Made by a program: the position numbers and the translations under genes. Under the pieces are notes generated by a model. The model saw only the letters and a list, made by a program, of their open reading frames with translations. It was not told where the DNA came from and made no database searches. A stretch of DNA of 64,000 nt from Moniliella sp. 'wahieum'. Lineage: Eukaryota. The stretch covers positions 248,001 to 312,000 of the forward strand of contig RSEE01000067.1 of the NCBI GenBank assembly GCA_003971905.1, given 5' to 3'. This document shows positions 638 to 42,879 of the stretch, piece after piece (the stretch's first letter is position 1; every line of letters begins with the position of its first letter).

Positions 638-2536
638 CTACTCACCCATCCCCGCCGCCTGCTTCCACGCGGGCAGGTTGTCGCGCAGAAACTTCTCCAG
701 CTTGTCGCCGACTTGGCGTACGGCGACGCAGGCGGGTTGTAGAAGCGGCAGTTGTCAAAGATCAGCTGCGTGTCGGCAAGGAACTGATCCAGCGTGGCGT
801 ACTTGTTGTTCTCCAGGTTGGTCTCCAGCGTGGCCAGATCCATCGGGTTCTTGATCACCTGGTAGTAGTCCGGCACATCTTCCGCCGACACTGGGTTCTG
901 GAACGGCCATGCCGACGCATGGTTGCCCAGCTCGGACAGCAGTTGCCGCATGACGCTATGGTGCGGTCCGCGTTTGGGCCGCCGCGCCAGCTCGTCCATC
1001 GCAGGCGTCCACCCTGCCTCTCTTAGCCCAGGCACATCTTCAGGTCGCACCCGCATCCCGCCTCTAGCCGCTCGCCATTGTCAGGGTGGCGGAACACGTC
1101 GAGGCCCGGATGCACAATGTGCGAGCGCGAAAATTGGGTCATCTTGTACCGCACCAACGCTTCCTGCCGCTGCAGCAGCTTGCGCACCTCCAAATACTCC
1201 ACCCGCGGGACCATTGTGCATTGCATCAACGTGCCCCCCTCGTAATCTTTGATGTACCCTGTCCAAACGGAGCGGGGGAGGGAGATGTCTTTGGTGAAGC
1301 CTTGCTTTTTAAAGTAACCAATCGCATAGTTGTCCGCATACGTCAGGAAATGGTCCACAGGACTCGTCTTGCGCACATAGGACTTGAGATGGTTCATTAG
1401 ATGCGACCCATATCCCTTCACTTGCTCCGTCCCTGTGATTGCACAAAACACAATCTCGGCAAACCGGCGCTGGGGGAACGGCTTGTAGGTAATGCCCCCC
1501 ACCACTTGTAGACCACGCTTGACAATCGCCAAACCCACATGCGTGCGGTCAAAGACGAGACGAGTAATGTACTCTCTCGGCATCTTGGGCAGCTGCCGCT
1601 GGAAAATATTTTTGAGCCCGGTGAGCAGGATGCCCGACTCGGGCGTCCCGTCGTTCCGCACGATCCGGAACTGAATCAACCCGGCACGCTCCTCGGTCTC
1701 CGCTGGCTTCTCTTGAATTGGAGGCAGCCTTTCCAGCATTGTCTCCCAGTCGGAATCGCCGCTTGAGGCGGTTGTGTCGGCGCCCTCGGATGCGGCGCGC
1801 GGTGGCGGCGGGGGCATGAGCTGTTGCTCCCGATTGGTCTCGCTGGGAACCGGGTCGACTGAGGCCCCCTGCGCCATTTGTTCGGCCTTGTATGTGTCCA
1901 GGGGCGGAGGAGGTGGATCCTCCTGCTTTGGCAGCGGGGGTGACGCAGAGTCACTAGAACCCGGGGTGGGAAGGGCGTGTGCGCCCATGGAATGATGTTT
2001 TTGTCCTTCGTGCGGATGGGGGGGCTCGATCTTGCGCCGCTTGATCCGTTTCTCCTCGTCCCCCACACCAGGAGAGACCTTGCTATGCGATCGAACGTGG
2101 CCTTGCACTTTCTCCCGGGCGGACGGAGTTGTTTGAGCAACGTCCGCACCTCTCTTCGCACCATCGTCTCTTCCTCGTCCCGTCCGGGCGCACTCAAGTC
2201 CAACCCCAAGTCCAACCCCCGCCCCACATCCCCCAGCAACTCGTCCGCCCGAACCGCCACACGAGCTCTTCGCGCCCACTCGTCCGACGATAACCGCGGC
2301 TGGTCCCCATGCGCAATCGCACTGTGCGAACAGGCACAGGTCGGGTTCTTTGCCACGCCATCGCGCGCCGCAACGACGGTAACGCCCTCGGGCGCGCGCA
2401 GACCAGGACAGGCACACTTGGCACACGGCGCATAGCGCGCCAAAACCACCTCGGCTTCGGTGCGGGAGAGGGAACGGAGCGACTTGGCGCCCACGGGGTA
2501 GGCGAACGTCCGGCCTGGCGAACTGGACCGGCTCAT
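638..2536 (-). CDS. GCN5: Histone acetyltransferase GCN5 (N-terminal Cys/His module + HAT domain + bromodomain), frameshifted
   Basis: HAT motifs [67 protein letters not shown] (ORF 1023..2597). Bromodomain [28 protein letters not shown] (ORF 436..1056). Stop TAG at 638-640 after a frame correction; start inferred at MSRSSSPG (2536). Confidence 0.95.
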
Positions 2537-3358: not shown

Positions 3359-4525
3359 ATGGCTACCGCCGTTGCTACCCCTGTCCCTGCCTCGCTCGCC
3401 TCTGGCACTGCTGCCGACAGTACCGCTTCCCCTGCGCTGCCGGCTGTCCTCCCTAAGTTCACCCCTCCGCCGGAGACGAGTGCGGAGTTGGACTGGGCTG
3501 ATCTCGCTACGATTGACCTATCCAAGACGGGCACGCCCGAGGGCAAGGCAGCCCAAGCGGCGCGTCTGCTTGAATCGTTACGCACGGCGGGTTTCTTTAC
3601 GTCACGGGCTACGACCTGTCTGAAGAGGAGATCGCGGAACAGTTTGCCATTGGCCAAGCGTTCCATAAGCTTCCAGTGGAAGAAAAGTTGGCTTTTAAGC
3701 CCGACCTCGACCATGGACGGTTCAATGGCTACCGTCCGGCCGGGCGGACGTTGATTGACCCCGAGTCGGGGCTACGCGACCAAGTGGATTTCTACAACAT
3801 TCCTAAACCTTCCTTCCCACAAGTCCACCCGCCTGTCATTGCACAGCGGATTGACACTGTGCTGGCGTTTCAACGCAAGCTGCACAACGCAGTGCTCGAC
3901 CCGCTCTTGCGTCTTCTCTCGCTCGCACTCGAGTTGCCGGAAATTACTTGTCCGACTTGCATCGGTACGACGATAAGACGGAGGACCATCTGCGCTACAT
4001 GCTCTACTCGCCGTACAAGAAAGAGGAGTACGAGGTACTCAAGGACAAGTGGCATGTCGGTGGCCATACAGACTTGGGTACCTTTACACTTCTCTATCGT
4101 CAGCCCGTTGCTGGTCTTCAAATCCGGGACCACAAGACCAACGAATGGAAATACGCCCGCCCGCACCCGGCTTCGTTTACGGTCAACTCGGCGGATGCGC
4201 TTAGCTTCCTCACGGGTGGGTATGTCAAAAGCACGATTCACCGTGTCGTTTTGCCACCGCGCGACCAAAGCCAATTTGAACGGCACGGTCTCCTCTACTT
4301 TTCTCGCCCCGCAACGATCTTGTCCTTTCCACCATCCAGGAAAGCCCGATCTTGAAAGGTCGCAAGAATACGTTTGAACAGGACGGCGTCACGCCCCCTA
4401 CCGTTGAGACTTGGACGTACGCCAAGCAGACTTGGCAGCATCGTCACCGTGGCACAGACGAGGAGCAACGCGCTCGCTGGACCGAGACTGTCCTCCCGGG
4501 TCACAAAGAGCAGCTGTACAAGTAA
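3359..4525 (+). CDS. 2-oxoglutarate/Fe(II)-dependent dioxygenase (IPNS/clavaminate synthase-like fungal family), frameshifted
   Basis: ELDWADLATIDLS..GFF N-terminal domain; GHTDLG (HxD), QPVAGLQI, STIHRV (distal His), RHGLLYF, spread over ORFs 3359, 3676 and 3948. Stop TAA at 4523-4525. Confidence 0.9.
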
Positions 4526-4954: not shown

Positions 4955-4958
4955 GAAT

Positions 4959-5044
4959 CTCTCCGACCGGGAATCGAACCCGGGTCTCGTCCGAACGCCC
5001 AAGAACATGACAGGGACGTGTCATAGCCACTAAACTATCGGAGA
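4959..5044 (-). tRNA. tRNA-Asp(GTC) with a 14-nt intron (4994-5007)
   Basis: Minus strand folds as acceptor TCTCCGA/TCGGAGA + G discriminator, anticodon stem CGTCC/GGACG with CT-GTC-A loop and intron after position 37, T-arm CCGGG-TTCGATT-CCCGG. Length 72+14 nt. Confidence 0.95.
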
Positions 5045-6846
5045 AGCTGTGACACATGATGGAGCCCTTGATGACATATCTTGTTGCGACATAATGGTTT
5101 GCTCCACCCTAGAAACCCGACGCTGACTTTTGGTCTCCGCTTGAGGAAGAGTATGTGACACTACGGTCACGGTGAACCTTCTCAGTTTCTAGGCTCCCTA
5201 TCGGACCCGCTCGCTCCTGCTCATGACCGGCGTGTACATGATCGGTCAGGCCGGTCAGACGACCAACGCCCTGTGGTGTAATGTGTTGCGCATGTTGATG
5301 AAGACGGGGACGTGTTCTTGCAGTGGGAGAGATTTTTCGCAAGGCCACAGTAGCCAGTAGCCACACATTATAGAAGGACATGAACCGCGCTGCGCAAGAC
5401 TGAGTCAGTGCTGCCGAAACATGGCTGCATGGCTGCATGGGAGCAGGGCAGCATCGCCCCGTCATCGCAATCGCACGAGATTGATATATTGACAGCACCA
5501 GGAGGCGTGCTATTATATAGGAACCGTTATTGAAGGTGTTTGAACTATAGTGTGGCACTGGGGTGGCCCGCAGCGGTGTGGTTAATCCGGTTAATATATA
5601 TCCGTACTGTGGCTTTTTAAGGCACAGGGCATGCAGTACTCATCGATCATCACTGGTAACACAGTGAGTGCCCCGTCCTGCCATCCGTCGTCCCACATCT
5701 ATCTGTGTGTGGGTCGTTCCAGAGTGCCGCCACACCGATTCACACTCCATCTAGAGTATACCTCTCAATGCCTGACCTTTTTCCCGAATGCAACTGGGCC
5801 CATCTCACTGATGCTCCCTTCCCTCCCTCTCCATGCTAGCATCTGGCCCAACACGTGCCGGCGCATCAGCACCGCAAAAGAGCGCAAGCAAAAGGACTCA
5901 GCCACAACTCTGCCTCACAGGTATATGACCCTCAGCGACGGACGGAGCTGCGGGGGGAGAGGATGTGTGATGTACGCGTGAGTAACCAGTGGCTCGTAGT
6001 TTCGCAGGGGGCGAGTTTTGTCTTGTACGGACACCCTTTCAGCCATCCGAGTATCTTTCCCCAACGGGACTGCAAGGTCAAAACTTCAACTCAGTCTGAG
6101 TACTCAGTGAGTACTCACGATTGCGTGAAGCTTGAAGCTTGATTACGATTATGCCAGGATGAAACAAACTGCAACATGTAACACGTCATGCATCAGGCAT
6201 TAGGCATGCGTCGCCCCGAGTGGCGAGTGGCCGAGACATCACACACCCCATGTCACATGATATTGACGCCATGGACAGGTGCCTTGCGATGTGCCCTGCA
6301 TCCCAGAGCGTTGCCACTGCCTTGCCATTGTCCGACGTCCATCGGTGCGCATGGGTGATGGGCCGGTGATGCCCGTCGTGACGCGTGGCGTGCCTCGTCG
6401 GGTGCCGAGGAGGCGAAGGCCCGCAGGAAGCGGCAGCGTGCGAGTGGCAAGGCGTGGCCCCCAAGGGGGCAGCCGGCAGCCACGCGCAGCTGCTGCGGAG
6501 AGTGAGAGCGTGCGAACCACCGGTGGCAGTCTGTGGCAGTCTGTCTCACTGGCACGCTTCAACGTTCAACCCCCGGGATCTCCTATTGCATGTTGCATCT
6601 CAGAACTGCAGCCATCGTTTCATCCTATCTCCCGAACTCTGTTCCCCCCGCCTGCGATCGAGGCGGGAAAGGCCGAGATCTCAGAACCCAGGTTGGGCCT
6701 CAGCAGCCCTACTATTAGCTATTCGGCCTGCCGCTGCCATTCCGTTTTCATCTGTTGCAGCACGCACGCACCCTCATTGCTGCCACCCACCACCACGACC
6801 GCAACGCTATACCGTCGCCCCACCATTCTTCCGCCATTCCCCCGCC

Positions 6847-9591: not shown

Positions 9592-11662
9592 AGCTTGAAG
9601 CTTGAAGCTTGGTGCTGATAAAAGACGTGAAGCCTCGTGTGGTTAGGCTTAACCTTAGTGGCTTAACAGCTTAATCGCCTGCTTTCCCCCCGTTCACTTG
9701 AACAGTCACTTTTCACTTTCACCACAGCTTGACCAATCTCCACGACCTATATTGCTTACCCTATTTCCCTACTTGCCTTACGGGTTTACGGTTCATCCAC
9801 CTTTTTTCTCGCCTTCTACTCCTTGCCGGCTTCTACCTCCCTCCCATCAACCTTCCCCCTATCTACCCCCCCCCCCCCCGCTGTCCCACGCTTTGTCCTT
9901 ATTGTATATTACCCTCATCCGCTTCCCTCCGCCCTCCCTTTGTCCTTTTCCACAATTATGTCTCTTCTCCCTCCTATGTCCCCCTTCCCTCGTCGCGTCT
10001 TCAAGTTACTTCAGCACGCCTCTCACCATCCCATTCCCGTCTCCCGTTTCCAATCCGCGTGTCCCTTGTGTGCCCGTTGTGCTTAGCGCCCTTGCAGAAA
10101 TGATAATACTGAAGATGATGGCGATCGCAGGATGATGGCTCCGAGTATATGCGTATGTACCGGTACAGACTCGGGGGGGGGGAGGTTATGGGAAGGACAG
10201 CTGGGACGGGAAAGGGTTCGAGCAGAGCCGCGTTCATGACGGAGGGGCATGCAAGCTACATGGACCGGTGCACTTTATCTACTTCACAGGAAGTGGTCGT
10301 CGCAATACGCCCTCATACGATGGGGACCGACGCAACGTTGGGTTCGCAATAGCGGGTGAACCTCTGATTGGGGTATTAGCGGTGGCGGTTGCATTCCCCC
10401 CCCACAATAGCTCCTCTCCATTTGCCATTGTATCAGGCTTGGTAGTAGTGCGGTCCTTCGTGCACAACAGAGGCTGCGGCCACGCGTCTCTCAGTGTTGT
10501 TACTAGCTACTGCTTCTGGTGTGGTCCCGTTGGCTCGCCTGGGCCCTTCTTTGGTAGATCAATGTGCTCGCAAGTTCTGTCTTCAATCTCTCTTTTCTCC
10601 TGTTCTCTCTCGCCTCACTTGGTCCTACTTTCCTCGGCCCACACTGATCAACGGGCAACGCACATCGACAGCATAAATCCCCCTTTTCGTCACGGCCACG
10701 CTGGGTTGAGGATGCTGGCGCGTTCGTTCCCACCTACTAAGCCTGTGACGCGACCGCCATCTGGGCCATGCGCTCTTTACGCCGCACCTCGTACTTCTCA
10801 CCCGCTTGGTGATAATGGCCTTGGGTCGCTGGTCGGCTACCAACTAAGGCCTTGATCACCCCTTCCATCACATAGCACCCGACAAAGTCGACCATCTTGA
10901 GCGCCACGAGGTACATTTGGAACTGAGTGGGGATATATGGGCACAAGTTATTTATCACCTCTCGTTCATCACCGGAAGTCATTATTATTCACCCAACCAG
11001 CGCCACGACGGCCGATTATGTCAGCACGCAGCGTGCTGGGTATTATTCGTGCGTCCCCACTCGGGATGGGTGGCGCGGCGGAGCGGGTCGGGGAGCGATC
11101 TGAGCGATCTGAGATCTGAGCGATCTCAGGCCTCAGGATGGAAGGACGTCGAGACGGCTCTTCTGCCTCCTTTCCACGCCATCCCCCATTCAACGCCAAC
11201 GGCGGTTCCTGTTCTCAATTCGTCCACCGCTACCGCAGCATGAATGGCCTCAAGCGATGCCAGCCATCCAAAACGAAGTGTGCATTTCAATCAACTGGAT
11301 TTTGGCGCGGGCAAGGGTAAGGGTAAGCGCTGGCTGTTTCCCCGTAATTGGCATTGGCCATTGGCCATCGGCCACAGCCCCCACCCAAGCGCGACGGCCC
11401 CAGCGGTGGATAGGCCAGACTGCTCACCCCCACAGCACACGCACAGGGCCACATCAGTAGCAACTAAATCAAAAACGAACGAAAGAATCAAGATCAATGC
11501 AGAGCAATCGAGCAAGCAGTGTCCCGTCTGGTCACTGGAACCACATGTGCAATGCCCCTTCCCCTCAATAGCTGCCCCCGGCCATCGTCAACAACACGCA
11601 TGGCTTGGTGCTTGCATTGGCATCTTATTGCCAACGACAGGGACATGGGCCTTGGTGCCATT

Positions 11663-12880
11663 CTACTGCACCCAGAACGCAAGCGAAATGACGAGGTAGA
11701 GCGCCACAAGCATTGCGCCTTCGATCCAGTTCGACTTGCCGTCCTGGATGAGCGTGTAGGTCAACAGCACCCCCGTAGCCAGAACCACCGTCTCGAACCC
11801 GCGGAAGTACAGGGTCAACGGCTGTCCCACCGCCCACCCAACCAACACCAACGACGGGATCAAGCCAATGGCAATTTGGATACTGCTGCCGACCGCAACG
11901 CCGAGCGCAATCTCCATCTTGTTCTTGATGGCCATCCAGATGGATGACGTGTTCGGCTGCGTTGCCCACAATGGGAAGGAGGATAGTGGAGATGAAGGCA
12001 GTGGGAATGTGGTACTCGTTCGCCACCTCGTCAATCGCTCCCACCAAGTAATCCGCATTGAACGACGTGACGACAGTCACCACCAACAGCGCCAGCAGTG
12101 CCGCCTGCGTATTCATCTTCTCCTCGTCCTCGTCCCGTCCATGTCAAACTCGGCTTCGGTCAACGCCTCCGAGTCCCACAGGAAGGAATGCGTCTTGAGT
12201 TGGAACAGCAGGTACAGACCATACACCGCGACTAGGATCACAGCCGCGCCACGGCTGATAAACAACAGCCCCGCTTCGTCTTGGGCCGAATCGCCATTGT
12301 GCCCCGAAAGACGGTAGGCAGCCGGGATGACAAGTGTGATGGTGCCCAAGAGAAGAATGGAGCCACTGGCTTGGGCCGCAGTGGCCTGGAACGTATTTTC
12401 CTTACGGACAATGCCGCCGGCGCAAAACGACATGCCCAGCACGAGTAGCAAGTTGCTCAACACACTGCCAATCAACGACGTTTGCACAATCCGAAGCTGG
12501 CCCTGGAGCAAGGCGACAATACCAACAATCAACTCGACGGCATTGCCAAACGTGGCGTTGAGCAGGCCGCCCAGCGTGTCGCCCAATTGCATGCTCACTT
12601 GCTCCGTCGCATCGCCCAGCAGCTTGGCCAGCGGCACAATCGCAAGAAAGTTGAGCGAGAAGCGAGCCAGCGCACTCCACTCGAGCTTCTCGGCCAACAG
12701 ACCCAGCGGGACAAAGACAAGGAGCGTGTTGAGGTACGAGTTGAACAGGAACCAGTGGGCGGACTGGGCGAGCGTGGGCACAGGGCCGGTGCCGGCGCTG
12801 GAGCGGTGGGCAGAGGGGGGGTTGGCAGCGCCGTTGGAGGCGCCGGTGGGCGTGCCCAGGAGGGGGGCGCGTTCGGACAT
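11663..12880 (-). CDS. VCX1: Vacuolar Ca2+/H+ exchanger (CAX family), frameshifted
   Basis: Alpha-1 repeat GGLLNATFGNAVELIV, LIGSVLSNLLLVLG, YLLFQLKTH; alpha-2 repeat LLPIVGNAAEH, GSSIQIA, DGKSNWIEG. Confidence 0.95.
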
Positions 12881-14092: not shown

Positions 14093-16087
14093 TTAGGGCC
14101 GCGATCGCTTTTTGCCCTTCTTGGTAGCGGCACCTTGGCGTGCCTCCTCCACCTCGTCCGAGGAGAGGATCTGGCCCTGGGTCCATGCATGGACAAACCA
14201 GGCCTCGGCTCGAGCTCGTGCGTCGGGACCCGCGTGCCAGAACTGCCATTCCAGAATTTTGTCTTGCATCTTGGGAATCAGTGGGCCGGGCGGAAAGCCC
14301 ACCAGGTTGGCCAAGTCGCCTCCATTGAGCAACGACCGTTCCTCCACTTTCTCAGCATGCCCAACGTTTCCACCCAGCCCCACCACCGAGCCAAATCGGC
14401 AGGAAGCAGGCCCACGTCGGCACCTGCCACCAACGCAAATACAAAACCCAGCCTCGGGACGGATAGCAAGGGCCGAGCGGGAAAAGAACGGACGTCGAAG
14501 AAGAAAGTAGAGTTTGGTCTGCTTGGTGCGCAAATCCTCCTCCTTCCCCACGCCCTGTTCCCATGCTTGGAACTGGACCAGGGCGTGGAACGCCAGGTGC
14601 AGCGCCTCGACCGGTCTTTTGTCGCTTTTACTCCGACCGTAACCGTCCACCAACACCACCTCCCCCGCTGGAAGCAGGTGCCGTTTCGGGACTTGGCCTG
14701 CCTTGACGGGCAAGGGTGGGACCAGGCACGCAACCCGTCCAGAGGAAAGACTGCCAGCGCATACGCCATTCGCCGTCGTTGTTCCGGGTCCGATAGGATC
14801 CCCGTGGGAATCCCCGGGTTCAACGTCGGATCAAGCCAGAACGATTCCAGCTGCTTGCCCTTCTCCACCACCCATTCGTCCGTGTGGCAAGGCACGGCGG
14901 CCTGTGGCGGGCCGTGGTCGTCGCTCCCATAGAGCTGCGACGGCGCCTCGGGCTCCGGCGGCGGACGAAAGACAACGGGAAACAGGTGCAGATCATACAA
15001 TGTGCTAAGCGCCAAACTCGGATGCTCACTGCGTAGCATTTTGTCTGTCTCCATTCCCAGACGTTCGCGACTGATCTTGTGAGCCAGCTGGTGGCGCAGC
15101 GCTCCGCCTTCGCGCACCGCCGAGCACAGCTCATCGTCCAACGCAAACCCAAACCGACAGGCAAAACGAACACTGCGCAGGATACGAAGTGGGTCCTCAT
15201 CCAACGTCACGCTCGGAGCAAGGGGGGTCCGGATCAGCCCTTGCTCCAGATCCACCAGCCCACGTTTCGTCAGGTCCTCCACCGCACGCGTATGCACATT
15301 GAAAAATAACGCGTTGATGGTCAAGTCGCGCAGGTAGGCATCTTGCTCGGCACTGGGATTGGCGCCCCCACGCAGCTGGACAAAGTCTAACGATTGACCA
15401 AGTACCTTGGCCGTGGCTGTCTCGAGGTTCTTGCCCTGCGCCGGATTGGCTTCAATCTTAGTGATCAGTCCCATCGATACGCCATCCCGCCCACCACCCA
15501 AGCTGGCCAGGTACCGCTCGAGGTAATACGCAAATTGGTACCCCTCAACGTTGACACGCACACGTCCATATCGTCCGACGCTAACTTTAGCACCTTGTCC
15601 CGCACCCACCCTCCCGCTATCCGCACCTCGCACACCGCCACCCAGCCTCCTCTAGCGCAGGCGCACGGCCCAGCTCAGCCGGCAGCGCTGGACGCTCCGC
15701 ACGGATCCACTCGCATGCCGCATCGAGCAGCGTGCAGATACGCTCTTCGGTCGGTGTCAGGATAAGCGCTGTGGCGGGTGGCGCGGTGGTCATTGGGCGG
15801 TGGCGAGGGAGCAGGGGTAGGGCAGGGGAAGGGGCAGGGGAAGGGCAGGGGCACACGGCGGCAGCCAGGACGGGGACGGGGACAGGGCTGGACCTGGTGG
15901 GGATGTGGGACACGAAACGAGGTGCGCCAAGTCGTTCCCGACGGGGTGGGGGGACGGGGCGAAGCGCAGAAGCCAACAGGCGGTGGGAGCCGGGCAGCGG
16001 GAATGGGAATGGGAGTGGGAGTGGGAGCGGGGGCGGGTGGGACAGCCACAGAGGGGACATGGGGAGGCTGAGCGGCTGAAGAGACAT
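14093..16087 (-). CDS. CCA1: Class II tRNA nucleotidyltransferase (CCA1 family); candidate CC-adding enzyme; frameshifted
   Basis: VRIAGGWVRDKVL...DDMDV (motif A with DxD), NLETAT, DFVQLR, RDLTINALFFN, EDPLRILRSVRFA, KISRERLGME, C-terminal PLLNGGDL..PPGP..LEWQ. In-frame ATGs at 16087, 16060 and 15793. Confidence 0.92.
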
Positions 16088-22134: not shown

Positions 22135-24403
22135 GGTGGCCGGTGGAGGCCACATTCGGTTCTAGCGAAAAGGTAGGAACGGAGAAATGATCAATCATCG
22201 ATCATCGAATCAACGTTCAACTGAACACCTACACGTTTACCCCCCCGCAATCAACTAATCAACAATCATTAAATCGACGTTGACCTCAACCACGGTTTTG
22301 CCGCTGCAGCAAAACGCCATCGAAACAGGAACCTGCGCTTATTAGCGCCAATGGCTTAGCACTTCTCCCCGCCCCATCGCTTTCTCCTGTGCCGGTTGCC
22401 GATATTGGCTGCTTGCCTTGAGATATCGAGAAGCCTTATTAGCGCCAAGTGACTGAACTCTTCTCCCTCTCTGCACCCGTTCTCACCAGGCGCGCGGTAC
22501 TCCGTTGGGTGTTATTGGGTTCTTGGGCTAATTCTTTTTTCCTTCCCCGCATTGCATCACTCAATACTCAACAAGACTTCCGGCGAGAGGATGGGTGCGA
22601 ACATCAACATGGCAATACAGTCAGCCCGACCCTGGGGGACTCTGGGGGGATATACGGAATCAGCTACAGAGATAGCAGCCTTTTGAGGCAAAAGGCGAAA
22701 AGACCAAACGCGAGAACCACGAATCTTCAAACACGTCTGTAGGGAAGGAGACAGGAGGCAGAGAAGCGAGATGGAACAGGCAGGAGGTTCACATTCAATA
22801 GCGTAAAGGGGGGTCCTGTCCTACCCAACTATTGAAGCGAGCACTACTGATCTCATTAAAGGGGTTTCCGTAACGCATGTGAATGGGAGCCCCAACAGCA
22901 CTACAAGTCAGCCACTACTCTCTCACAGTGGATACCTTCAGTTGCCTGGTAACGCCGGTAACCATCTCGGAGAACGACACATTTTCAATCGCGCCTTTTT
23001 CTTGGACAGGGGCTATATCGTTTTACATGATGTTTTGGTATAATGGCAGCTGACAGAAAAGGACGAATGGGGGTTCTCGCAGAGCAGTGGAGCTAGTCAA
23101 GCTAGTCAATGGGTCATACATCTCATCTCCATCATGCATCATCGATGCATCATCCCGATTAAATTTGCCGAAGAGAGGCACTTTCGAAGATGAACTTCAT
23201 CGAAGCTTCATCATTCTGATAAAGCCTTCGCGGACCGTGCATCACTTGCATCATGCATCACGACTAGGTACTAGCACTAGCTTTGCATCTCGCTGCTTTC
23301 CATCGCTGACCGGGGCGGGGGCGTCCGGCACACGAGGGCGCACCTGAGCGCCTGAGCGCCTGAGCGCCTGAGCACACTTGCTCAGACTTGCCCCTCAGGA
23401 AAAAATCTTTGACACCTCGGAACCTAATCGATAATTCTTTTATTTTAATCACATCAGAGGAGATACGCGGGTTGCAAGCGAGCCACACTGCACTAGCCCA
23501 GTGTGCCACAATCGCTATCTGTGCCGCGGGTACTATTTGGCCGTTTACTGCGCCCCCGGGCTGGGGTGCAGCTGGCGAGGTAAGCGCCGGTACGCGCCAA
23601 TACAGGCACAGTGGCGCCTATCGCTTTGGCTTTGGGGTATGTTGCGCCGCGAAGGCTTCTGATTAATAACTGGTTGGGTAAGACAGACGGATTGATTGAT
23701 TGCCCTGACACGCACGAGGCCCTGGAGGACAAAATGTGATCTATCAATATCAATGTCGTGGAGATCTAAGTCTCTAAGAGCGCTGTATGAGCGCGGCTGG
23801 GCTCGATGATGCATGATACATGATGCATGATGCATGATGCATGATGGACGAGATCAGTGCTGCTCATCGAATCGACTCATCGCTCAGGCTGAGCGTGAAT
23901 ATCGGTCCTCAATATTCAATCTCCTCAGTAGAAACATCCATGAATCTCCCTGACGCACGCATCGTGCCATCATGGATCCATTGTCCAGCATTATCGATTA
24001 ATCGATTACGATTATCCCCGCCGGCTAGCTGCCCGGCTGTCAAAGGATTAAGGATGGCCGGAAAAGAGACTCCGTGTAGATTGCGGATGCGCGAGACACA
24101 GTCCAACAGCGGCGGCAGACCTACTGCCTTTGTCACACAGTGTCAGGTACACGAGTGTGGCGAACACCACTATCGTGGCTGCCAACGAGACTCCAGCCCC
24201 TAGCACAGGTAAGGCCACGCCTTCAGGAACATGCATCCTATCTTTTCAGGCATCAGGCCTTCGGTCGCGTCTGCCCGATAATCGATAATCCTTCAAAACA
24301 GCTCGCCTAAGCTTTGGGCAACCGCTTTGCATCTCTCCCTTCCCCTCTCTCCCTCGTCCTCCTCTCCGTTCCATCGTCTCTGGTACGCCCAACCACCACC
24401 GCG

Positions 24404-26035
24404 ATGGCAACAATGGAACACGACAGCAAGTCCATTGCGTCTGCCTCATCCAAGCAGGCCGATGCTGGCTATGCTCCACCAGAGACTTCGTTCAAGCCAA
24501 TTGTCGAAGTCAACGACCTAGCCAATGCTGATGTCGACACAATGGCACGTGTCTGGACACGGAGAGATTGGACGCTACGCCACGAGGAGTGCAAGAAGGT
24601 GCTTCGCAAGATCGACTGGTACCTTCTGCCCATGATGTGTACTGTGTACTGCCTCACCTTTGTGGACAAGACCACCATCAATTACGCCCATCTGTTGGGC
24701 TTCCAGAACACGCTTCACTTCGACTCTTCCCAATACTCGTGGCTGGGCAGCACATTTTACCTCGCCTATTTGGCCGCGCTTCCTGTGCACTCGATCATCT
24801 TCCACAAAGTTCAGCTGGGCCGCTACCTTGCAGTATGCGTCTTCTTTTGGGGCGTCACCCTGACGCTCCATGCCGCTGCTTTCAACTGGGCTGGCCTCAT
24901 GGTATGCCGTGTCTTTCTTGGCATCTTTGAGTCCGCCATCACACCCGGGTTTATCCTCATAACTGGGCGCTTCTGGAGTGCAGACCAAATCAACACCCGT
25001 ACCGCTCTGTGGTTCTCCTTTGTACGTGCCTTCCTTTCCACCATGCCTGACCCTTGCATGCATTGGACCCAATACTTACCCTGCAAGCATCGTCACTACT
25101 TTTCAGAACGGTTGGGCTCAAATCCTGGGTGGACTCATCTCCTATGGTCTGCAGCGGCAGCACAATACCGCCATCCCCCGCTGGCGAGAAATGTTTATCA
25201 TTCTTGGACTGGTCACTACCCTCTTCTCGGTTATCACTCTCATTTTTATGCCGTCCGAGCCGGGCAAGCTAATGGTGCTTACCGAGCGGGAAAAGTTGAT
25301 TGCCGTTGACATGGTCGCCAAAAATAAGACGGGCATTGTGTCACACAAGTTTGAGTGGTACCAAGTGCGGGAGGCGCTGATTGACCCACGTGTCTGGACC
25401 TTGTTCCTTTGCATCATCTGCATGGACGTGGCCAATGGCGCACTTACCAACTTTGGAACAACAGTCATCTCCTCCCTTGGCTTTGATGCCGAACAGACAT
25501 CTCTCTTGGGTCTAGCCCAGGGGGGTCCGAAGTGGTTGCATGTCTCTCATCGTCCTTGGCGCTCTCTACGTGCCCACGTCCGCCATGGGATCCTTCACGC
25601 TGCTCATCTCAATTATCGGATCGGGCGTACTGGCATCGCACGCTAAACGTGGCCAAGGTGACACTGTACATGTTTGTCCCTTGGTTTGCACCTGCCTCCA
25701 TGGTACTGTACGGAACCTTGGCCCGTAGCTTCTCGGGCGAGACCAAGCGGATCGTGGCCAACGCTATCTTCCAAGTCGGTTACTCGACAGGTAACATTAT
25801 TGGTGCCCAAATCTACCGTGCTAAGGATGCTCCCGAATACACTCCTGCCAAAGTCGCCATGGTCTCCCTCTTGGCCATCAGCTGGGTCATGTACGGCATC
25901 TTTTTCCTCACTCACGTCTACCTCAATCGCCAACGTGACCGTGAATTTGGTGACCAGCCCGAACACCACTTCGTTGACGATCTTAGCAACCAAACCGACT
26001 GGGAAAAGCGGCGCTTCTTCCGTTACCCACTTTAG
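24404..26035 (+). CDS. MFS transporter, allantoate permease (DAL5/ACS) family; intron 25022-25106
   Basis: KKVLRKIDWYLLP, DKTTINYA, QYSWLGSTFYLAY, RVFLGIFESAITPGF, WFSF|NG across a GTACGT...CAG intron, NKTGI..FEWYQVREALIDP, GETKR, GNIIGAQIY, TDWEKRRFFRYPL. Confidence 0.93.
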
Positions 26036-26580: not shown

Positions 26581-28143
26581 TCATTCCAAGCTTACTAGCG
26601 CCGCCCTCCGCGCTTGCGTTTTGCGCCTTGCTCCCACCTCCGGCTCACTCTCTTCGTCCGACTCGCTTTCTCCTGCGCCGACCTCAATAGGGCTGAGGTC
26701 CGACTCGGAGTCCTCCTCATCGTCGTCCTCCGAGTCAACATCCGACCCTTCCTCCTCCCGGTCCGAGAGCTGGAAGAGCTCCTCCTCTTCCTTATTAGCC
26801 TGGGCGCCAAAGGCATCTTCATAGGCAAACTCGTCGTCCTCCTCCCCCTCTTCTTCGTCTTCCTCATCGGAAAGGGGCACCTTCTGATCTTCGGGTAGGG
26901 AATGGCTTCAAGCCCCTGCCGTACGCGGGCTTCGTTTTTGGCATCCCACTGCGCACGCCGCTTCCGCCTGACATTCTCCTCTTGTTCCTCGCGCCGTTGT
27001 GCCCGTGCCGCCTGGCCCTCGGCACGCAGTTGCTTTTGCTTGGCCTGCTCTTGCGGGCTGAGGCGGATACGGTCATGCCACAGCCCTGGCCCCCATTCAA
27101 GCCTTCTTCCACCTTGATCAACCTCAGTTCCAAGCGCGGCCCCACCTCGGTGAGACGAAGCACGCGTGTGTGCGCCCTTGGCCTTGTGCGCACGCCGGTT
27201 CCCCCGCCCAGCGTACGAGTCAAACAATTCAACCGTCTTGCCCCCTTCCACATCCGACTCCCCATCCGTATCCGTCTCGTAGGAACTCTCATTGTCCGCC
27301 TTGCCCAGCACGTAGTCTGCCAAATCGTGCACTTGGCCCAGATCGGGCAGAGCGCTGATCCCTTTCTTTTGACCTTCCACCACCTTGCGCAGACGCTTGC
27401 TCACTCCCGTGGGACGAACGGTAATGACAAAGTGCCGCCAGTCAAGCGTGCGCGTGGTCGGGTTAAAGTGCACCAGCACCACACGCCGAGCTGCACCGAG
27501 CCGCATCTGCGCCGGATTGACCGCCGGGAAGAGACGTTGGAGCGTAGTCGCAATCAGACTCAACGCGCGCAAATCGTCACGCGCCTTGGTGTCGCCAGGA
27601 GCAGGCGCAGGCTGCTTGAACCCGCTGAGAACGAGCAGCGGGGGGGTCATGTACTCTGGTGCGGTAGGGTGAGAAGAATGTTTGGTGCGCGCGCCACGTC
27701 GCGCCGAAGCGCGTACTTGTTGATTCGGAACGTGAGCGTCGGGCCACGCGGGAGAGCACCAATGCGCAGGTTGAGACGCGCCATGTCCGTCATGCCGCCG
27801 ACGGCGGTGGTGCGGCGTTGGCGTCCCTTGGCCGGCTGGGCCAACATGAGCAGATGCGTCACGCCGAAAATCGACGCGGCCGACACAAAGTCCTTGAGCG
27901 TGTTGCCCCGGTTTTGCCGCAACTTCTCGGCCGTGTAGGGCGCCAGCACGCCACGGAGATCCAACAGCAGTTGCCGGCCAGCCGGCGTGAGCGCACCCGA
28001 GTGCAGCACAAAGCTCCGCGGCACCCCGTCCTTGGGGCCTAGGTTGCCCTCCTCCGGACGGGGAGCTGCACTTTCCTCGTGCGGCGCGGCTGGGACGGGT
28101 CGGAGTTGCTGGTCTTGCTCCGCTTGGCTTGGGGCTTGGCCAT
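26581..28143 (-). CDS. SSF1: Brix-domain ribosome biogenesis protein SSF1/Peter Pan, frameshifted
   Basis: VPRSFV, DLRGVLAPYTAEKL, NTLKDFVSAASIFGVTHL, PRGPTLTFRINKY, RRVVLVHFN..LDWRHFVI..GVSKRLRK, LTEVGPRLELRLIKVEEG; acidic C-terminal tail. Confidence 0.93.
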
Positions 28144-28526
28144 CGTGCCAGACGCGACGGGGAGGAAGGAGATGGTGGTGGGCACGGGGCGGGCTTGCCT
28201 AATTTTTTTCGCCGGGGGCCCAGCGGCGGATGGGATAAATTGCCAGTCGGTGCAAACACGTGCGATCGGTGCAAAGCCGCTGCCTTCTATCAAATCACCG
28301 CTCGCTGTGGTCTGGCTGATGACGTGGCGGCGAGGGCAGTATGACGTAGGCGCCCGTTCCAGCGGACGCCCCGCCAGCGGCTGACATAAGCGGACACTGC
28401 CGCTGCGCTGCCGCGGCTGAGCCTCGCCCGGCCCCCGCCCTTCCGGCCCGTCTGCTCCTGATCGCACGGCCGCCGAGCCACCACCCCCCCCCCCCACCAC
28501 CACCGCCGCTGATTCTTCTGCCCGCC

Positions 28527-35859: not shown

Positions 35860-38800
35860 TGCTTGGAGTGAAAGTCTACAGAATCAAGGTGGATGCCTAC
35901 CGCCGCGCGCGTCCATGCGCATCTCGGGCCACCCACCACGCCGGATCATGGTCACACAGTACTTCCACCTCTTGCCCTGGGTGGAGCACAAACCTTCTTC
36001 CACCCTTCTGGCCTTCCTCCTCCCTCCCCACCGCGCCCGACAATCGGATCGACCCAACCACCGTACTAGCAGGCAAAGAAGGAGGTTGCCATTCCACCTT
36101 GGACGGCCGCTCTCTCCTCTCTACCGCAGGCGGCACGTACCGCGCGCAAACGTAGGCCATAAACGGCGTCGTGGCCGTATAGCCACCGTTCCAGTAGGGC
36201 TCCAAGGTAGGCAGCAAATCTGCCACCAACGGTGGCGCTTCCAATGGGAGCGAGGCGCTGAGCTCCCGACCCCACTCTAATGACGGCGCAACCGTCGCCG
36301 CCACAGGGTGGTCAGCGGTAGAGGTGGTAGTGGCCATAGAAAGGTTCCGCGCATGCTCTGACCGACTTCGATCCGATAACTCCATCTGGTCCAACAAGCC
36401 TTCCAAGGTCGGGTTGGGATGCGAGACGGTGGGCACGTACCGCGGTTGACTTAACGGCGAGGGACCGGCATCGAACTGTAGTTGGTTGTGGCGGAAAGTC
36501 TGCATGGCGCGCGCCATGGCCGCCCGTGCCTCTCGCGCATCCCGCCCAGGGAGCGGCACAGGTGCCGCCGGTGCCGGCGCTGGCTCCTCATCCGAATTGT
36601 ACGACGACTCGTCCCATTCGTCCTCGAGCGCATCCTCCTCGTTGCCCGTATCGGCTCGAATTACTTTTTCTGTCGCCGCGTTGAGTTGCGCAAGCAAGTC
36701 CATGCCCCCACCGACAGGGGGCGGAGATGGGTCCCGCTCCTCGCGGGCTGTGGGCAGTGGCGTGGCGGGTACCCCTGCCAACGGGTCAAGCGAGCCTAGC
36801 GGCGACGGGGTGCGGGAGGACGAGGCGAAACGCCTCGAGAGAGCAGTATTCTTCTCCACTGCCCGTTCGATCGTCGGACAAACGAGCAAGCGCACTCCCC
36901 GCGCATCGGTCCGTAGCCCCGCTCCCGTACCCGTACCAGCAGCTGAAGCCACAGTCTGGTCAGTGCGGGTATGGGTCAACTTGGGGCGGACAAAGCGCGC
37001 TCGGAGACCAGACGGCGTGCCCAACGGGCCCAGCATTTTTGTAGGCGGCGAGTGCGCCCATTGGCGCCCCAGCGCACCGGTCGCAGCTGCCAAGCAGGGG
37101 AGAGGGACGTGTTCATGGACGCGTTGGAGAGTGAGGCAGCGGAGGAGCCCACGGCGCGCAAGGCCGACAGAGCAGGGGACTGGGCATGGATTTGCAACTC
37201 AGTATCCCTTGCGGCGACCACACTAGCTGACGAAGTAAGTAGTGTAGCACCCACCGTGGCAAGCACGACGAGGAGAAGGACGATCCCCAAGGACATGAGG
37301 ACGCCGCAATCGCAATCACTACACCACGACGAAGGTGTGCAAGTTGGCAAAGGAAACATGCAGATTCTGCCGAGCGAGATTAAGAACCGTTCCAGGGTCA
37401 CCCAATGGCCCTGTCGGGTCGAGAAGGGCATCCAACGATCCCCATCAAACAGTACTGCGCCACTTGGACCCCAGTTGTTCAGTACCACTTGCCCCATCAG
37501 GGAGAGGACACGGTTGTCCTGCATAATGTCTGTTTTGGGTCCGGGAGTAAGGGTAGGAAGGATGGCAAGTTGAGTCACTCGACCGCCGAGGATGGTGTCG
37601 TTCCCGAGGTTGATAAACTGACCTCCGTCCCACTTGAGGACATACGGTTGGCCATCCGATTGGTTTGCTGGCCATTGCCCGCCCGGGAGCGCTTCATAAG
37701 AGAAAGAGCGTTCCCCCAGGCCAGGAGTACGAGTCGGAGGAAGCACTGGAATCCGACTCGTCCCATGCCAAGGCGAGGGACTGGTTGAAGATGCTCACCC
37801 CGGCAACAAAGACTGAGTTGAGGGCCAAATCGTTGACAACTACCCCGTGGCCGGCCCGGGAATTTGGTGGGGCCCAGGTCCGACCGTACCAAGTCCCTTC
37901 CAGGTCCCATTGTACAGACTCCACATGGCCAACGCGGCCTCCTCCTCGTCAACCGTCAGCGCGCCGGCAACGATCAGTACCTCAGCATCCGCCTGCAAGG
38001 GGAGGATCAGGTCAGTACTCCCATCCTCCTTCAACCACCCGCAACCCATTCAGAGAAACACGTACGTCTGCAAAGTCCACATCGAGTACTTGGCCCGTAA
38101 ACCCGGATCCGAGCTGCATCCAACGCCCTGAGGGACCCCCGCCTGTAAAGTCCCACAGGCAGATAGAGACACAAGGGAGCGAGCCTGCCGTATCAAAATC
38201 TCCCACCACAACCATCACTTCGGCTCCAGGCTTGGGCAGCAGTTTGCGTACGACAACTGGGGGGTGGACAAGGTGCCCTGAGCCGCCGTCGGAGCCGTGG
38301 CTGTTTGGTACCCATTCGGGCGATCGACCAAGCGGAGCAGCATTCTCCAACCATGCACCGTGGTACAAGTCAAAGATCAGCAGGCCGCCTCTAGCACCAA
38401 CAAACAGGGTCTGGTTACCACCGTCAGAGCATGAACGTCAGAGATGAGGTAGGGCTGAGTCGTGTTCCAGTCGGGCGTTTCCAAGGAAGAAGAACCAGAG
38501 TCTGAACTGGATGAACTATCCGAGTCAGAACCCGTGTCATCATCCGCGGGCTGGATAGGCCCGCACCAACATCAAACGGAAGTGGAGGAAAGGGGAGAAG
38601 ACTGTGCGAGGTGGGATCGTAGAGCCCCAAGTTGGATACGTTGCCAGCCGAGGTAAAGTTCCCTCCGATAATGAGCAGCGCAGGTTCAGACCCTTGTACC
38701 ACCGTCGGGTGCAACCCTGACATCCACCCACCATGGGTAACGGGAGGGGGAGCATCCTTCTCCGAATCGTCCGTCACTTTCGTTCCCGACTCTGGCTCCG

Positions 38801-41800: not shown

Positions 41801-42462
41801 GGGAGGAGGAACAGTGGAGCGCATTGACCGTGCCGTTGATGCCATCAGCCAGAGCAGACCAGCTACCAGTCTGAGGCATCCAGCGGGCGATGCTGCGGGC
41901 AGTGACGTTGCCAATGGCAGTAAAGTTGCCAGCAACAAAGACGATTTGTCCATCGGCTGCATTGCCCACAGGGGTGGCTGCGTCCAAAAAGGGAGGGGCG
42001 GCACTAGTACTGCTGCTAGTGCCGGGATAGGGGAGCAGGGGTTGGGGGTCAGAACGAGCGGCACCAGCACCGGGTGAGGCGGTGACACCCGAGGGAAGAC
42101 GCATTGAGCAGATGGCGTGGATCGACCCGCCTGGTCGGTGGCACCGGCCGGGAAGAGAAGGCCGAGGTCGGAGCGAGCAAAGAGGGTGCTGCGTAAGGGA
42201 TCGAGGCGGGCGTGGCCGAGGGCGCGGGAGGTGGCACTGGTACGGGAAATGTCCATGCCAGAGAAGGAGCCGAGGGCCGCGACCTGTCCTAGGCTGGGGA
42301 TGTCAAGCTGGGGGAGGATGGTGGAGTTGGCATTGGCGGGGGTGGGACTAACGGAGGGGCTGGCGCGCGCAGCGGTAGCGAGAAGGAGGAGGCAGAGGGC
42401 GGTGGCTGCAGCAGCAGCGTCCGCAGCAGCATCCTCAGCAGCCGCGCGAGCGCCGCTGCCAT
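35860..42462 (-). CDS. RAX2: RAX2-like cortical polarity protein (signal peptide, kelch-like ectodomain, TM, C-terminal SH3-like domain), heavily frameshifted
   Basis: LPQLDIPSLGQVAALGSFSGM, FVAGNFTAIG..IARW, GINGTVNALHC, NVALWD..W.PP.F.GLNAPV, GLRLSN, VVGDFDTAGSLPCVSICLWD..LGSG, a TM region, then YVCARYVP...LHPGQEVEVLCDHDPAWWVARD. Both ends approximate. Confidence 0.82.
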
Positions 42463-42879
42463 GTATGGCGCGTGGGAGCGATGGTGGCGGTGTGAAGGGG
42501 GGGGGGAGGCTGCGTCGCCGTCGAGTGGATGGGCGTGGCGGCGATGGCCGTCCGCGACGCGAGCGCAACCAGGCCGCTGGGCTCACGTGAACGTTCAGCT
42601 GAACGGATGGACACGTGTCACGTGACCCATGCCCGTTTCAATTTCAACCCCTGTCCGGGGTAACCGACCGAACCTATGGCGATTCCAGCACTGCAGCCAC
42701 GGTGTGGAGCATCCATCGAGTCCCGCCCCATCCATGCCCATACAATGCGTACAGCACGGATCCAGGCGGCGGTCTGCACCAATAATGGCCTCTACCGTTT
42801 GCACTCGCTCTTGAGATATATGAGAGGATATCGGCCCATAGTGCGGATCGCCCGGGGGTTTATGCCAGAGGTACACTTA

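What the first reader, a model, noticed from the sequence alone, without database searches (positions are those of the whole stretch)
15310..15390. tRNA nucleotidyltransferase lacking the flexible loop: candidate CC-adding half of a split CC/A system
Seen: in one clean frame with no intron, the protein reads DFVQLR-GGANPS-AEQDAYLRDLTINA. Established: CCA-adding enzymes have a much longer segment here (yeast Cca1 recalled as DFVNLR-SEKYTELSRIPKVCFGT-PEEDALRRDATLNA). This loop is needed for A76 addition, and its deletion marks bacterial CC-adding enzymes. S. pombe uses separate CC- and A-adding enzymes. Here about 11 residues including the E-x-Y and SRxP elements are missing, while DxD and EDxxR remain intact. 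Inference: this gene adds only CC, a second A-adding paralog should exist elsewhere in the genome, and the deletion would parallel the bacterial route.
Basis: partly seen in the sequence, partly recalled or inferred. Interest (0 to 1): 0.8.

Follow-up and report, generated by a model that had tools for sequence, protein, structure and literature searches.

The report
Fungal tRNA nucleotidyltransferase missing A-adding loop
A smut-related fungus carries a gene for the enzyme that builds the CCA end of tRNAs, and it really lacks the small loop needed to add the final A, so it probably adds only CC and needs a partner enzyme that could not be looked for here.

Summary
On the minus strand at 15387..15310 the gene reads DFVQLRGGANPSAEQDAYLRDLTINA. 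The spacer between D..LR and xRD.T.N is 12 residues. It is 21-25 in 243 of 256 homologues, and none with a sound gene model is shorter than 21. A short-read contig from a different sample covers 15301-15451 with no indel.

The missing parts are the acidic residue of the B/A motif, the fungal loop consensus Yxxx(x)SRxP and FGT. RRD has become LRD. Motifs A, C, D (EDPLR) and E are kept. Papers give these losses as hallmarks of CC-adding enzymes, including Acanthamoeba Ntr3, a eukaryotic enzyme with a deleted loop that was assayed as CC-adding.

The gene (14093..15793, minus strand) belongs to an unsampled, fast-evolving Ustilaginomycotina lineage. Its only close relative, P0001, also has a degenerate loop.

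As assembled, the gene changes frame five times. GCN5 and other genes in the window do the same, so these are assembly indels and not decay.

The predicted second enzyme could not be sought because no genome is held. Verdict: a probable CC-adding enzyme of independent origin, and a new member of a known kind.

The parts
14093..15793 (-). Whole coding region of the class II (e-type) tRNA nucleotidyltransferase gene, from ATG at 15793..15791 to the stop at 14095..14093. No intron is needed. As assembled it changes frame five times.
   Evidence: tblastn of 8 homologues; alignment to P0001; frameshift-aware alignment, 557 aligned codons plus 5 frame breaks, 0 stops; Pfam PF01743 and PF12627
15597..15614 (-). 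Motif A, part 1: GGWVRD
   Evidence: Pfam PolyA_pol profile positions 2-25 on ORF 15465-15674
15564..15572 (-). Motif A, part 2: the metal-binding DxD (DMD)
15364..15390 (-). Strand LDFVQL followed by R-G-G. The basic residue of the B/A motif is kept and the acidic one is lost (homologues have R-x-E).
   Evidence: definition of the B/A motif from PMC7014341 and PMC7947759
15334..15369 (-). Shortened flexible-loop segment GGANPSAEQDAY. It lacks Y, SRxP and FGT, a net loss of 11 residues. In the model it is a 9-residue coil between a strand and the motif B helix.
   Evidence: a contig of run X1 covers it without a gap
15310..15333 (-). Motif B, LRDLTINA: the first Arg of RRD is replaced by Leu
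15223..15282 (-). Motif C region, VEDLTKRGLVDLEQGLIRTP
15163..15198 (-). Motif D, EDPLRILRSVRF (the EDxxR nucleotide template), intact
15037..15072 (-). Motif E, SRERLGMETDKM, intact
15630..15631 (-). Frame change 1 (two bases left over, so one base is probably missing nearby)
15544..15545 (-). Frame change 2, beside a run of four G
14711..14712 (-). Frame change 3, between two CCC runs
14437..14437 (-). Frame change 4 (one base left over), in a TTT run
14348..14349 (-). Frame change 5, in an AAA run

Best explanation
This is a working gene for an ancestral-eukaryotic-type (e-type) class II tRNA nucleotidyltransferase of an unsampled Ustilaginomycotina fungus. It has lost the elements that let such enzymes switch from CTP to ATP and position tRNA-CC for the last step. 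[quoted passage not shown] The metal-binding site, the EDxxR template and the rest of the core are kept.

The enzyme is therefore expected to add C74 and C75 to tRNAs and stop. A76 would be added by a second enzyme encoded elsewhere, either an A-adding enzyme or a full CCA-adding one.

Shown here: the deletion, the motif states, the placement in the tree, and the lack of loop conservation in the only close relative.

Inferred: CC-only activity and the existence of the partner.

The five frame changes are assembly errors, not decay.
For: 1. Loop length. The spacer is 12 aa against 21-25 aa in 243 of 256 homologues, and it is the shortest of all. A short-read contig from another sample shows the same sequence with no indel.

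2. Where the window departs from conserved positions. 64 columns are at least 90% conserved in 43 canonical-loop homologues. The window departs at 13 of them, and 8 of those 13 lie between the B/A motif and motif B. Four of the other 5 are mild exchanges (S>G, Y>F, F>L, D>E) and the fifth is a gap at a Lys column near the end of the piece.

3. The literature:
- B/A plus loop are required for A addition. Fungal e-type loops carry Yxxx(x)SRxP. S. pombe and S. rosetta CC-adding enzymes lack these positions and regain A addition when loop and B/A are restored (PMC7014341).
- A. castellanii Ntr3 is e-type, lacks B/A, has the loop deleted and motif B deviating, and was assayed as CC-adding. QRD in place of RRD is listed as typical of CC-adding enzymes (PMC7947759).

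4. The screen recovers known cases. It also picks out the S. japonicus enzyme (P0285). That genus's CC-adding group is known. The PDB chain named cca1 reads LRHHDY..NKLVFGTP, and the chain named cca2 keeps RAESY..SRIP.

5. The only close relative. P0001 is about 50% identical and forms a clade with 100 support. It also lacks R-x-E, Y and SR, but has a 62-aa spacer. The loop is therefore free to vary in this lineage while the core is kept.

6. The gene is alive:
- There are 0 stops in the frame-corrected reading.
- All 3 substitutions listed by place in X1 are synonymous.
- The AF2 model of the 279-aa in-frame piece has mean pLDDT 88.9 and matches CCA-adding enzyme structures.
- GCN5 in the same window has 3 similar frame breaks while its frame-corrected reading stays closely matched to P0121 (BLASTP 90% over the C-terminal part). 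Other genes are also split between overlapping frames.

7. CCA must be added after transcription. The one tRNA gene in the window has no encoded CCA.
Against: - No activity was measured, and no second nucleotidyltransferase gene was seen. The genome is not held, and the window has only this one.
- The gene sits where the ordinary orthologue of Ustilaginomycotina would sit. Each named species of that group appears only once among the listed hits, and I made no search for second copies. A duplication is therefore not indicated by anything seen.
- The long branch is not specific to this gene. GCN5 of the same lineage is also on a long stem. Fast evolution alone might have reshaped the loop.
- Loop sequences are known to differ between groups and carry no universal signature (PMC7014341).
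- The frame breaks were not resolved by reads, because X1 does not cover them.
Confidence: 0.6

Rival explanations
1. It is the organism's only tRNA nucleotidyltransferase and still makes complete CCA. The loop was shortened in a fast-evolving lineage and the switch to ATP is achieved in some compensated way.
For: - The WIN+P0001 clade sits inside the Ustilaginomycotina clade like an orthologue.
- Each named species of that subphylum appears once among the listed hits.
- GCN5 shows that the whole lineage evolves fast.
- Loop sequences vary between groups without a common signature (PMC7014341).
Against: - Three separate elements tied to A addition are lost together: the B/A acid, the loop and the first Arg of RRD.
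- In the papers I read, every enzyme described with a lost or degenerate loop or B/A motif is CC-only, and deletions and most point mutations in the loop inhibit A addition (PMC7014341, PMC7947759).
- The loop is not conserved between the window and P0001 (12 against 62 aa). That does not fit a loop still doing a job.
Confidence: 0.25
2. It is a pseudogene, or a decaying redundant copy, beside a full CCA-adding enzyme. The frame changes are real.
For: - Five frame changes in 1.7 kb.
- A. castellanii Ntr3 was discussed by its authors as possibly decaying beside two full enzymes (PMC7947759).
Against: - GCN5 in the same window has 3 frame breaks in 1.9 kb, yet its frame-corrected reading stays closely matched to P0121 across the breaks (BLASTP 90% over the C-terminal part).
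- Pfam profiles of Na_Ca_ex, MFS_1 and Brix run on without a break between overlapping frames, and DIOX_N and 2OG-FeII_Oxy lie in overlapping frames.
- The breaks leave 1 or 2 bases over, and 4 of 5 lie in or beside runs of 3 or more identical bases.
- There is no stop in the corrected reading.
- 51 of 64 highly conserved columns are kept, including all catalytic motifs.
- All 3 substitutions listed by place in another sample are synonymous.
Confidence: 0.08
3. The short loop is an assembly artefact of a noisy assembly.
For: The assembly clearly has single-base indel errors.
Against: - The errors seen leave 1 or 2 bases over. None is a loss of about 33 bases.
- A 151-nt contig of an independent DNA run spans 15301-15451 with one substitution and no gap.
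Confidence: 0.02

Closest known systems
Acanthamoeba castellanii Ntr3 (e-type CC-adding enzyme; PMC7947759, passages read)
   Same: Ancestral eukaryotic type. It lacks the B/A motif, has the flexible loop deleted and motif B deviating. This is the same route as in bacteria.
   Different: It belongs to another supergroup (Amoebozoa), so the origin is independent. Ntr3 has PDxxR in motif D, and the window keeps EDxxR. Ntr3 sits beside two full CCA-adding enzymes and an A-adding enzyme of bacterial origin. The partners here are unknown, and Ntr3 was assayed while this enzyme was not.
Schizosaccharomyces CC-adding enzyme (PDB chain 9ns2 named cca1; S. japonicus P0285)
   Same: Fungal e-type enzyme. 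The B/A acid is lost (RHH, RSH) and SRxP is lost. It is paired in that genus with an A-adding paralogue that keeps RAESY..SRIP (9ns4, named cca2).
   Different: It keeps nearly the full loop length (spacer 21-23), FGTP and RRD. It is not grouped with the window's gene or with any basidiomycete in the tree. That 9ns2 and 9ns4 are the S. pombe proteins is my inference from the names and from the RHH described in PMC7014341.
Bacterial CC-adding enzymes (as described in PMC7014341, PMC7947759 and bioRxiv 10.64898/2026.05.29.728689; passages read)
   Same: Deletion of the flexible loop and of B/A as the cause of CC-only activity. Motif B is often QRD in place of RRD.
   Different: They are bacterial-type sequences, not e-type. 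The partner A-adding enzymes are known.
Canonical Ustilaginomycotina enzymes (Exobasidium P0003, Ceraceosorus P0004 and P0006, Tilletia P0018, Malassezia P0030, Violaceomyces P0259)
   Same: Same subphylum clade (support 99-100). Same domain order. 40-46% identity to the 279-aa piece.
   Different: All of them carry LRKE.Y...[ST]RIP...FGT..EDA.RRD, with a 23-aa spacer.
P0001 (unnamed protein of 678 aa from a Logan contig)
   Same: It is the only close relative: about 50% identical, sister with 100 support, and collinear over the C-terminal domain, which no other protein matched. It also lacks R-x-E, Y and SR.
   Different: Its spacer is 62 aa, with a low-complexity insert, and it keeps IPFGTP and RRD. 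Whether the insert is an unspliced intron could not be checked.

Membership tests
Class II tRNA nucleotidyltransferase / poly(A) polymerase superfamily | Pfam head domain PF01743 and RNA-binding domain PF12627 | tested here: met
   PF01743 E 6.1e-12 and PF12627 E 2.9e-8 on ORF 14278-15651. The first 25 profile positions fall on the neighbouring frame.
Class II tRNA nucleotidyltransferase / poly(A) polymerase superfamily | Motif A: GGxVRD and metal-binding DxD | tested here: met
   GGWVRD at 15614..15597 and DMD at 15572..15564. In this assembly they lie in a different frame from the rest of the gene.
Class II tRNA nucleotidyltransferase / poly(A) polymerase superfamily | Motif D: the EDxxR nucleotide template | tested here: met
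   EDPLRILRSVRF at 15198..15163
Class II tRNA nucleotidyltransferase / poly(A) polymerase superfamily | Fold of the head, neck and body domains | tested here: met
   AF2 model of the 279-aa in-frame piece has pLDDT 88.9. Foldseek's top match is 9kma, the Arabidopsis CCA-adding enzyme, at E 7.9e-14, followed by other CCA-adding enzyme structures. The N-terminal 85 or so residues were not modelled because of the frame breaks.
Ancestral eukaryotic (e-type) enzymes of fungi | Groups with fungal and plant enzymes in trees | tested here: met
   It lies inside the Ustilaginomycotina clade, with support 100 (113 rows) and 99 (30 rows).
Full CCA-adding e-type enzymes | B/A motif (basic and acidic residue, R-x-E) before the loop | tested here: not met
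   The window has R-G-G. Homologues have R-x-[ED] in 234 of 256. A further 19 are Pucciniomycotina sequences with the motif offset by one residue.
Full CCA-adding e-type enzymes | Flexible loop with the fungal consensus Yxxx(x)SRxP | tested here: not met
   No Y and no SRxP. The spacer is 12 aa against 21-25 aa in 243 of 256. The consensus is taken from PMC7014341.
Full CCA-adding e-type enzymes | Motif B: RRD | tested here: not met
   The window has LRD. RRD is present in 254 of 256 homologues; the exceptions are P0095 (LRD) and P0353 (QRD).
CC-adding enzymes | Loss of the B/A motif and deletion or degeneration of the flexible loop, with the catalytic core kept | tested here: met
   The hallmarks are as stated in PMC7014341 and PMC7947759.
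CC-adding enzymes | Adds C74 and C75 but not A76 in vitro | not testable with these tools
CC-adding enzymes | A second enzyme in the same genome supplies A76 | not testable with these tools
   No whole genome is held. There is no second PolyA_pol domain among the 235 ORFs of 110 aa or more in the window, and no second tblastn locus.

The most novel reading that the evidence does not exclude
This fungal lineage has only this one class II nucleotidyltransferase, without the B/A acid and without the loop, and its tRNAs still end in CCA. In that case either A76 is added by this enzyme through a loop-independent switch of specificity, or it is added by an enzyme of another family. Either would be a new solution to an essential step.
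Probability: 0.12. Interest if true: 0.8.

Novelty: new member of a known kind. Interest (0 to 1): 0.45.

Why it matters
In the papers I read, split CC/A systems in eukaryotes are described for Schizosaccharomyces, choanoflagellates and Acanthamoeba. A search of the held library for 'CC-adding' together with 'Basidiomycota' found no paper.

If the prediction holds, this would be a further independent origin. It would be the first in Basidiomycota, and the first fungal case that took the deletion route seen in bacteria and Acanthamoeba rather than the point-mutation route of S. pombe.

It offers a natural test of how far loss of the loop, the B/A acid and the first Arg of RRD predicts CC-only activity in e-type enzymes. 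The related canonical enzymes could supply loops for restoration experiments.

Tried and rejected
Searches that gave nothing:
- Genome-wide search for a paralogue: no genome is held.
- Sequencing runs: one holder only, with share 0.07, and no RNA holder listed. X1 does not cover the frame-break sites. Its third piece (34 nt, 4 differences, with loose ends on both sides) was set aside as unrelated.
- JGI metagenome contigs: 10 loci, none close. The best were 50% over 128 residues and 68% over a short stretch, and they were not used further.
- Search with the C-terminal half of P0001: it found only itself.
- Representative library of 1.84 billion proteins: no further member of the clade. P0001 scored 199 bits and the next hit 172.
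- Earlier findings of this scan: nothing by place, by sequence or by words.

Readings considered and dropped:
- I considered gene-specific acceleration as a sign of paralogy. I dropped it because GCN5 of the same lineage also sits on a long stem, 0.57.
- I rejected the pseudogene reading because GCN5 and other genes carry the same kind of frame break.
- P0241's 17-aa spacer looked like a second short loop. P0385 of the same species has the full loop.

Tools that added little or were not used:
- The fold search confirmed the family and nothing more.
- No complex prediction was run, because there is no partner to test.

Full report
**What is there**

The window has 57.6% G+C and no N. On the minus strand between 15793 and 14093 lies a gene of the tRNA nucleotidyltransferase / poly(A) polymerase family. 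Pfam PF01743 matches at E 6.1e-12 and PF12627 at E 2.9e-8.

L-DFVQLRGGANPSAEQDAYLRDLTINA is read from 15390..15310 in one frame.

**Is the segment really short?**

I aligned the in-frame piece with the 120 listed hits of the first protein search (386 had E up to 0.001). The stretch from LDF to NALF is 29 residues in the window. It is 39-41 residues in 112 of the 120, and the other 8 are all longer.

I then added the 140 new representatives from a search of 1.84 billion cluster representatives. On these 260 homologues I measured the spacer between D..[LQ]R and xRD.[ST].N by regex:
- 256 matched and 4 did not.
- 243 of 256 have 21-25 residues.
- 12 are longer.
- One has 17 (P0241, Rhodofomes). 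A second record of that protein (P0385) has the full loop, so the 17 is a gene-model artefact.
- The window has 12, the shortest of all and 11 below the modal 23.

The window lacks three things:
- the acidic residue of R-x-E;
- the Y, SRxP and FGT of the loop;
- the first Arg of RRD, which is now LRD.

All three features (R-x-[ED], [ST]RxP, RRD) are present in 222 of the 256. A further 19 are Pucciniomycotina sequences in which R-G-x-E is offset by one residue and so missed by my pattern.

Conservation points the same way. 64 alignment columns are at least 90% conserved among 43 canonical-loop homologues. The window departs at 13 of them, and 8 of the 13 lie between the B/A position and motif B. 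Four of the rest are mild exchanges (S>G, Y>F, F>L, D>E) and the last is a gap at a Lys column near the end of the piece.

The other motifs are present: motif A (GGWVRD, DMD), the motif C region, motif D (EDPLRILRSVRF) and motif E (SRERLGMETDKM).

**Is it an artefact?**

One public DNA run held part of the stretch: X1, labelled a wastewater metagenome and kept as Logan contigs, with a share of 0.07. When laid on the window it gave two useful contigs:
- a 151-nt contig on 15301-15451, with one substitution and no gap;
- another on 15163-15313, with three substitutions and no gap.

The short loop therefore exists in a second data set. The three substitutions listed by place are all synonymous: CGT>CGC, AAA>AAG and CAA>CAG. 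The fourth difference was not listed by place.

**The frame changes**

Homologues align to the gene without gaps, but in three frames. A frameshift-aware alignment guided by P0001 needs five frame changes, at 15631, 15545, 14712, 14437 and 14349. Four leave two bases over and one leaves one base over. Four of the five lie in or beside runs of three or more identical bases. The corrected reading has no stop.

This is not special to this gene:
- GCN5 at about 2536..646 on the minus strand needs three such changes (2107, 1064, 705), yet its frame-corrected reading stays closely matched to P0121 across them (BLASTP 90% over the C-terminal part).
- Pfam profiles of Na_Ca_ex, MFS_1 and Brix run on without a break between overlapping ORFs in different frames, and DIOX_N and 2OG-FeII_Oxy lie in overlapping frames.

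I read these as single-base assembly errors, mostly deletions. The link to long-read assembly is from my own knowledge. X1 does not cover the break sites, so this is not proven by reads.

**Whose gene is it?**

The best named relatives of the enzyme are Ustilaginomycotina: Exobasidium, Ceraceosorus, Tilletia, Malassezia and Violaceomyces.

GCN5 points to the same subphylum. Unnamed Logan proteins are 90-91% identical and named Ustilaginomycotina species are 66-77% identical. A tree of 23 rows, using 22 of the 120 hits chosen by me, puts the window with Tilletiaria at support 93.

In trees of the enzyme, the window and P0001 are sisters with support 100 on a long stem (0.87 and 1.03). They lie inside the Ustilaginomycotina clade, with support 100 and 99, in an unresolved fork with the other orders. 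The two trees were:
- FastTree, 113 rows, with the 8 hits under 400 aa left out;
- IQ-TREE quick, 30 rows chosen by me.

The S. japonicus enzyme is not grouped with the window's gene or with any basidiomycete, so any CC-only state here arose independently.

GCN5 of this lineage also sits on a long stem, 0.57. The long branch is therefore a trait of the lineage and is not evidence for a paralogue.

No further member of the clade was found:
- The representative search gave P0001 at 199 bits and the next hit at 172.
- The C-terminal half of P0001 found only itself.
- JGI metagenome contigs held nothing close.

**What the loop state means**

PMC7014341 (passages and sections 2.1 and 3.1 read) states the following:
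- The loop acts as a lever that switches the EDxxR template from CTP to ATP.
- The B/A motif positions the tRNA-CC end.
- Deletions and most point mutations in the loop inhibit A addition.
- Fungal e-type loops carry Yxxx(x)SRxP.
- The S. pombe and S. rosetta CC-adding enzymes keep the loop length but lack these positions. They regain A addition when loop and B/A from a close relative are put in.
- Loop deletion is the hallmark of bacterial CC-adding enzymes.

PMC7947759 (passages read) describes A. castellanii Ntr3. It is an e-type enzyme with no B/A motif, the loop deleted and motif B deviating, and it was assayed as CC-adding. The paper also lists QRD in place of RRD as typical of CC-adding enzymes.

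The window's protein has all three traits. PDB sequences give a direct comparison:
- The chain named cca1 (9ns2) reads LRHHDYTNSNSSNKLVFGTPLEDALRRD.
- The chain named cca2 (9ns4) reads LRAESYDDKSRIPSVTPGTVETDALRRD.
- That these are the S. pombe pair is my inference, from the names and from the RHH mentioned in PMC7014341.

My screen also recovers S. japonicus P0285 and an Amoeba proteus transcript, P0353, which has QRD.

P0001 is the only close relative, at about 50% identity. It has also lost R-x-E, Y and SR, but its spacer is 62 residues where the window's is 12.

Loss of the loop's conserved part therefore probably predates their split, and the segment has since drifted in length while the catalytic core stayed conserved. 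That is what one expects if the loop no longer does its job but the enzyme still does one.

The AF2 model of the 279-residue in-frame piece was built on an alignment of 50 rows, 49 of them chosen by me. It has mean pLDDT 88.9. Residues 58-66 form a short coil between a strand and the motif B helix, with block pLDDT 72. It matches CCA-adding enzyme structures, with 9kma first at E 7.9e-14.

**What remains open**

A76 has to come from somewhere. The one tRNA gene in the window, Arg-CCT at 4958-5045 on the minus strand, is followed by ATTCTTTTTT and not by CCA.

The predicted second enzyme could not be sought. No genome is held, and the window has no second PolyA_pol domain among 235 ORFs of 110 aa or more and no second tblastn locus.

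Nothing I saw shows a duplication. The gene sits where an orthologue would, and each named Ustilaginomycotina species appears once among the listed hits.

My weights are:
- CC-only enzyme with an unseen partner: about 0.6.
- Sole, fully active enzyme with a compensated short loop: about 0.25.
- Decaying copy: about 0.08.
- Artefact: about 0.02.

**Novelty**

The library search for 'CC-adding' with 'Basidiomycota' found no paper. The other searches and passages of bioRxiv 10.64898/2026.05.29.728689 and PMC4538823 mention no basidiomycete case.

Because a eukaryotic e-type CC-adding enzyme with a deleted loop is already known (Ntr3), this is a new member of a known kind, probably of independent origin, and not a new kind.

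Noticed in passing
window 646-2536 (-), breaks at 2107, 1064, 705; also 11628-12143 / 11666-12076 (-), 24311-25643 (+), 26598-28286 (-), 3574-4374 (+), 36979-42637 (-): Single-base frame breaks are common across the genes of the window: GCN5, a Na/Ca exchanger, an MFS transporter, a Brix protein, a 2OG oxygenase and a Rax2-like gene. The assembly therefore has frequent indel errors, and any frame-based reading of this window needs care.
   Followed up: partly
window 15800-16060: The region just upstream of the start codon is full of G-rich short repeats on the plus strand (GGGGAAGGGGCAGGGG; GGGAATGGGAATGGGAGTGGGAGTGGGAGC). Their function is unknown.
   Followed up: no
window 15794-16087 (-): The frame of the start codon stays open upstream, with an in-frame ATG at 16087..16085, 98 codons before the ATG at 15793. 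The extension is rich in Pro and Arg. It could be an organelle-targeting extension, as in other CCA enzymes, or just a translated repeat. P0001 has no such extension.
   Followed up: no
window 4958-5045 (-): A tRNA-Arg(CCT) gene of 88 nt, probably with an intron. It is followed by ATTCTTTTTT and has no encoded CCA.
   Followed up: partly
P0001, residues about 153-214: The closest relative has a low-complexity insert of about 40-50 residues (rich in Q, S and E) in place of the first half of the loop. It may be a real insert or an unspliced intron in an automatic gene call. Its DNA could not be read.
   Followed up: no
P0353 (Amoeba proteus transcript), P0095, P0296, P0308 (unnamed): Other e-type homologues have degenerate loops. 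P0353 lacks R-x-E and SRxP and has QRD. P0095 has LRD and a 37-aa spacer with no recognisable loop consensus (its one [ST]RxP match lies out of register). These are further candidates for CC-adding enzymes in other eukaryotes.
   Followed up: no
P0241 versus P0385 (Rhodofomes roseus): Two records of one protein differ by 8 residues in the loop region. The shorter one lacks FGTP..ED, probably through a wrong splice site in the annotation.
   Followed up: partly
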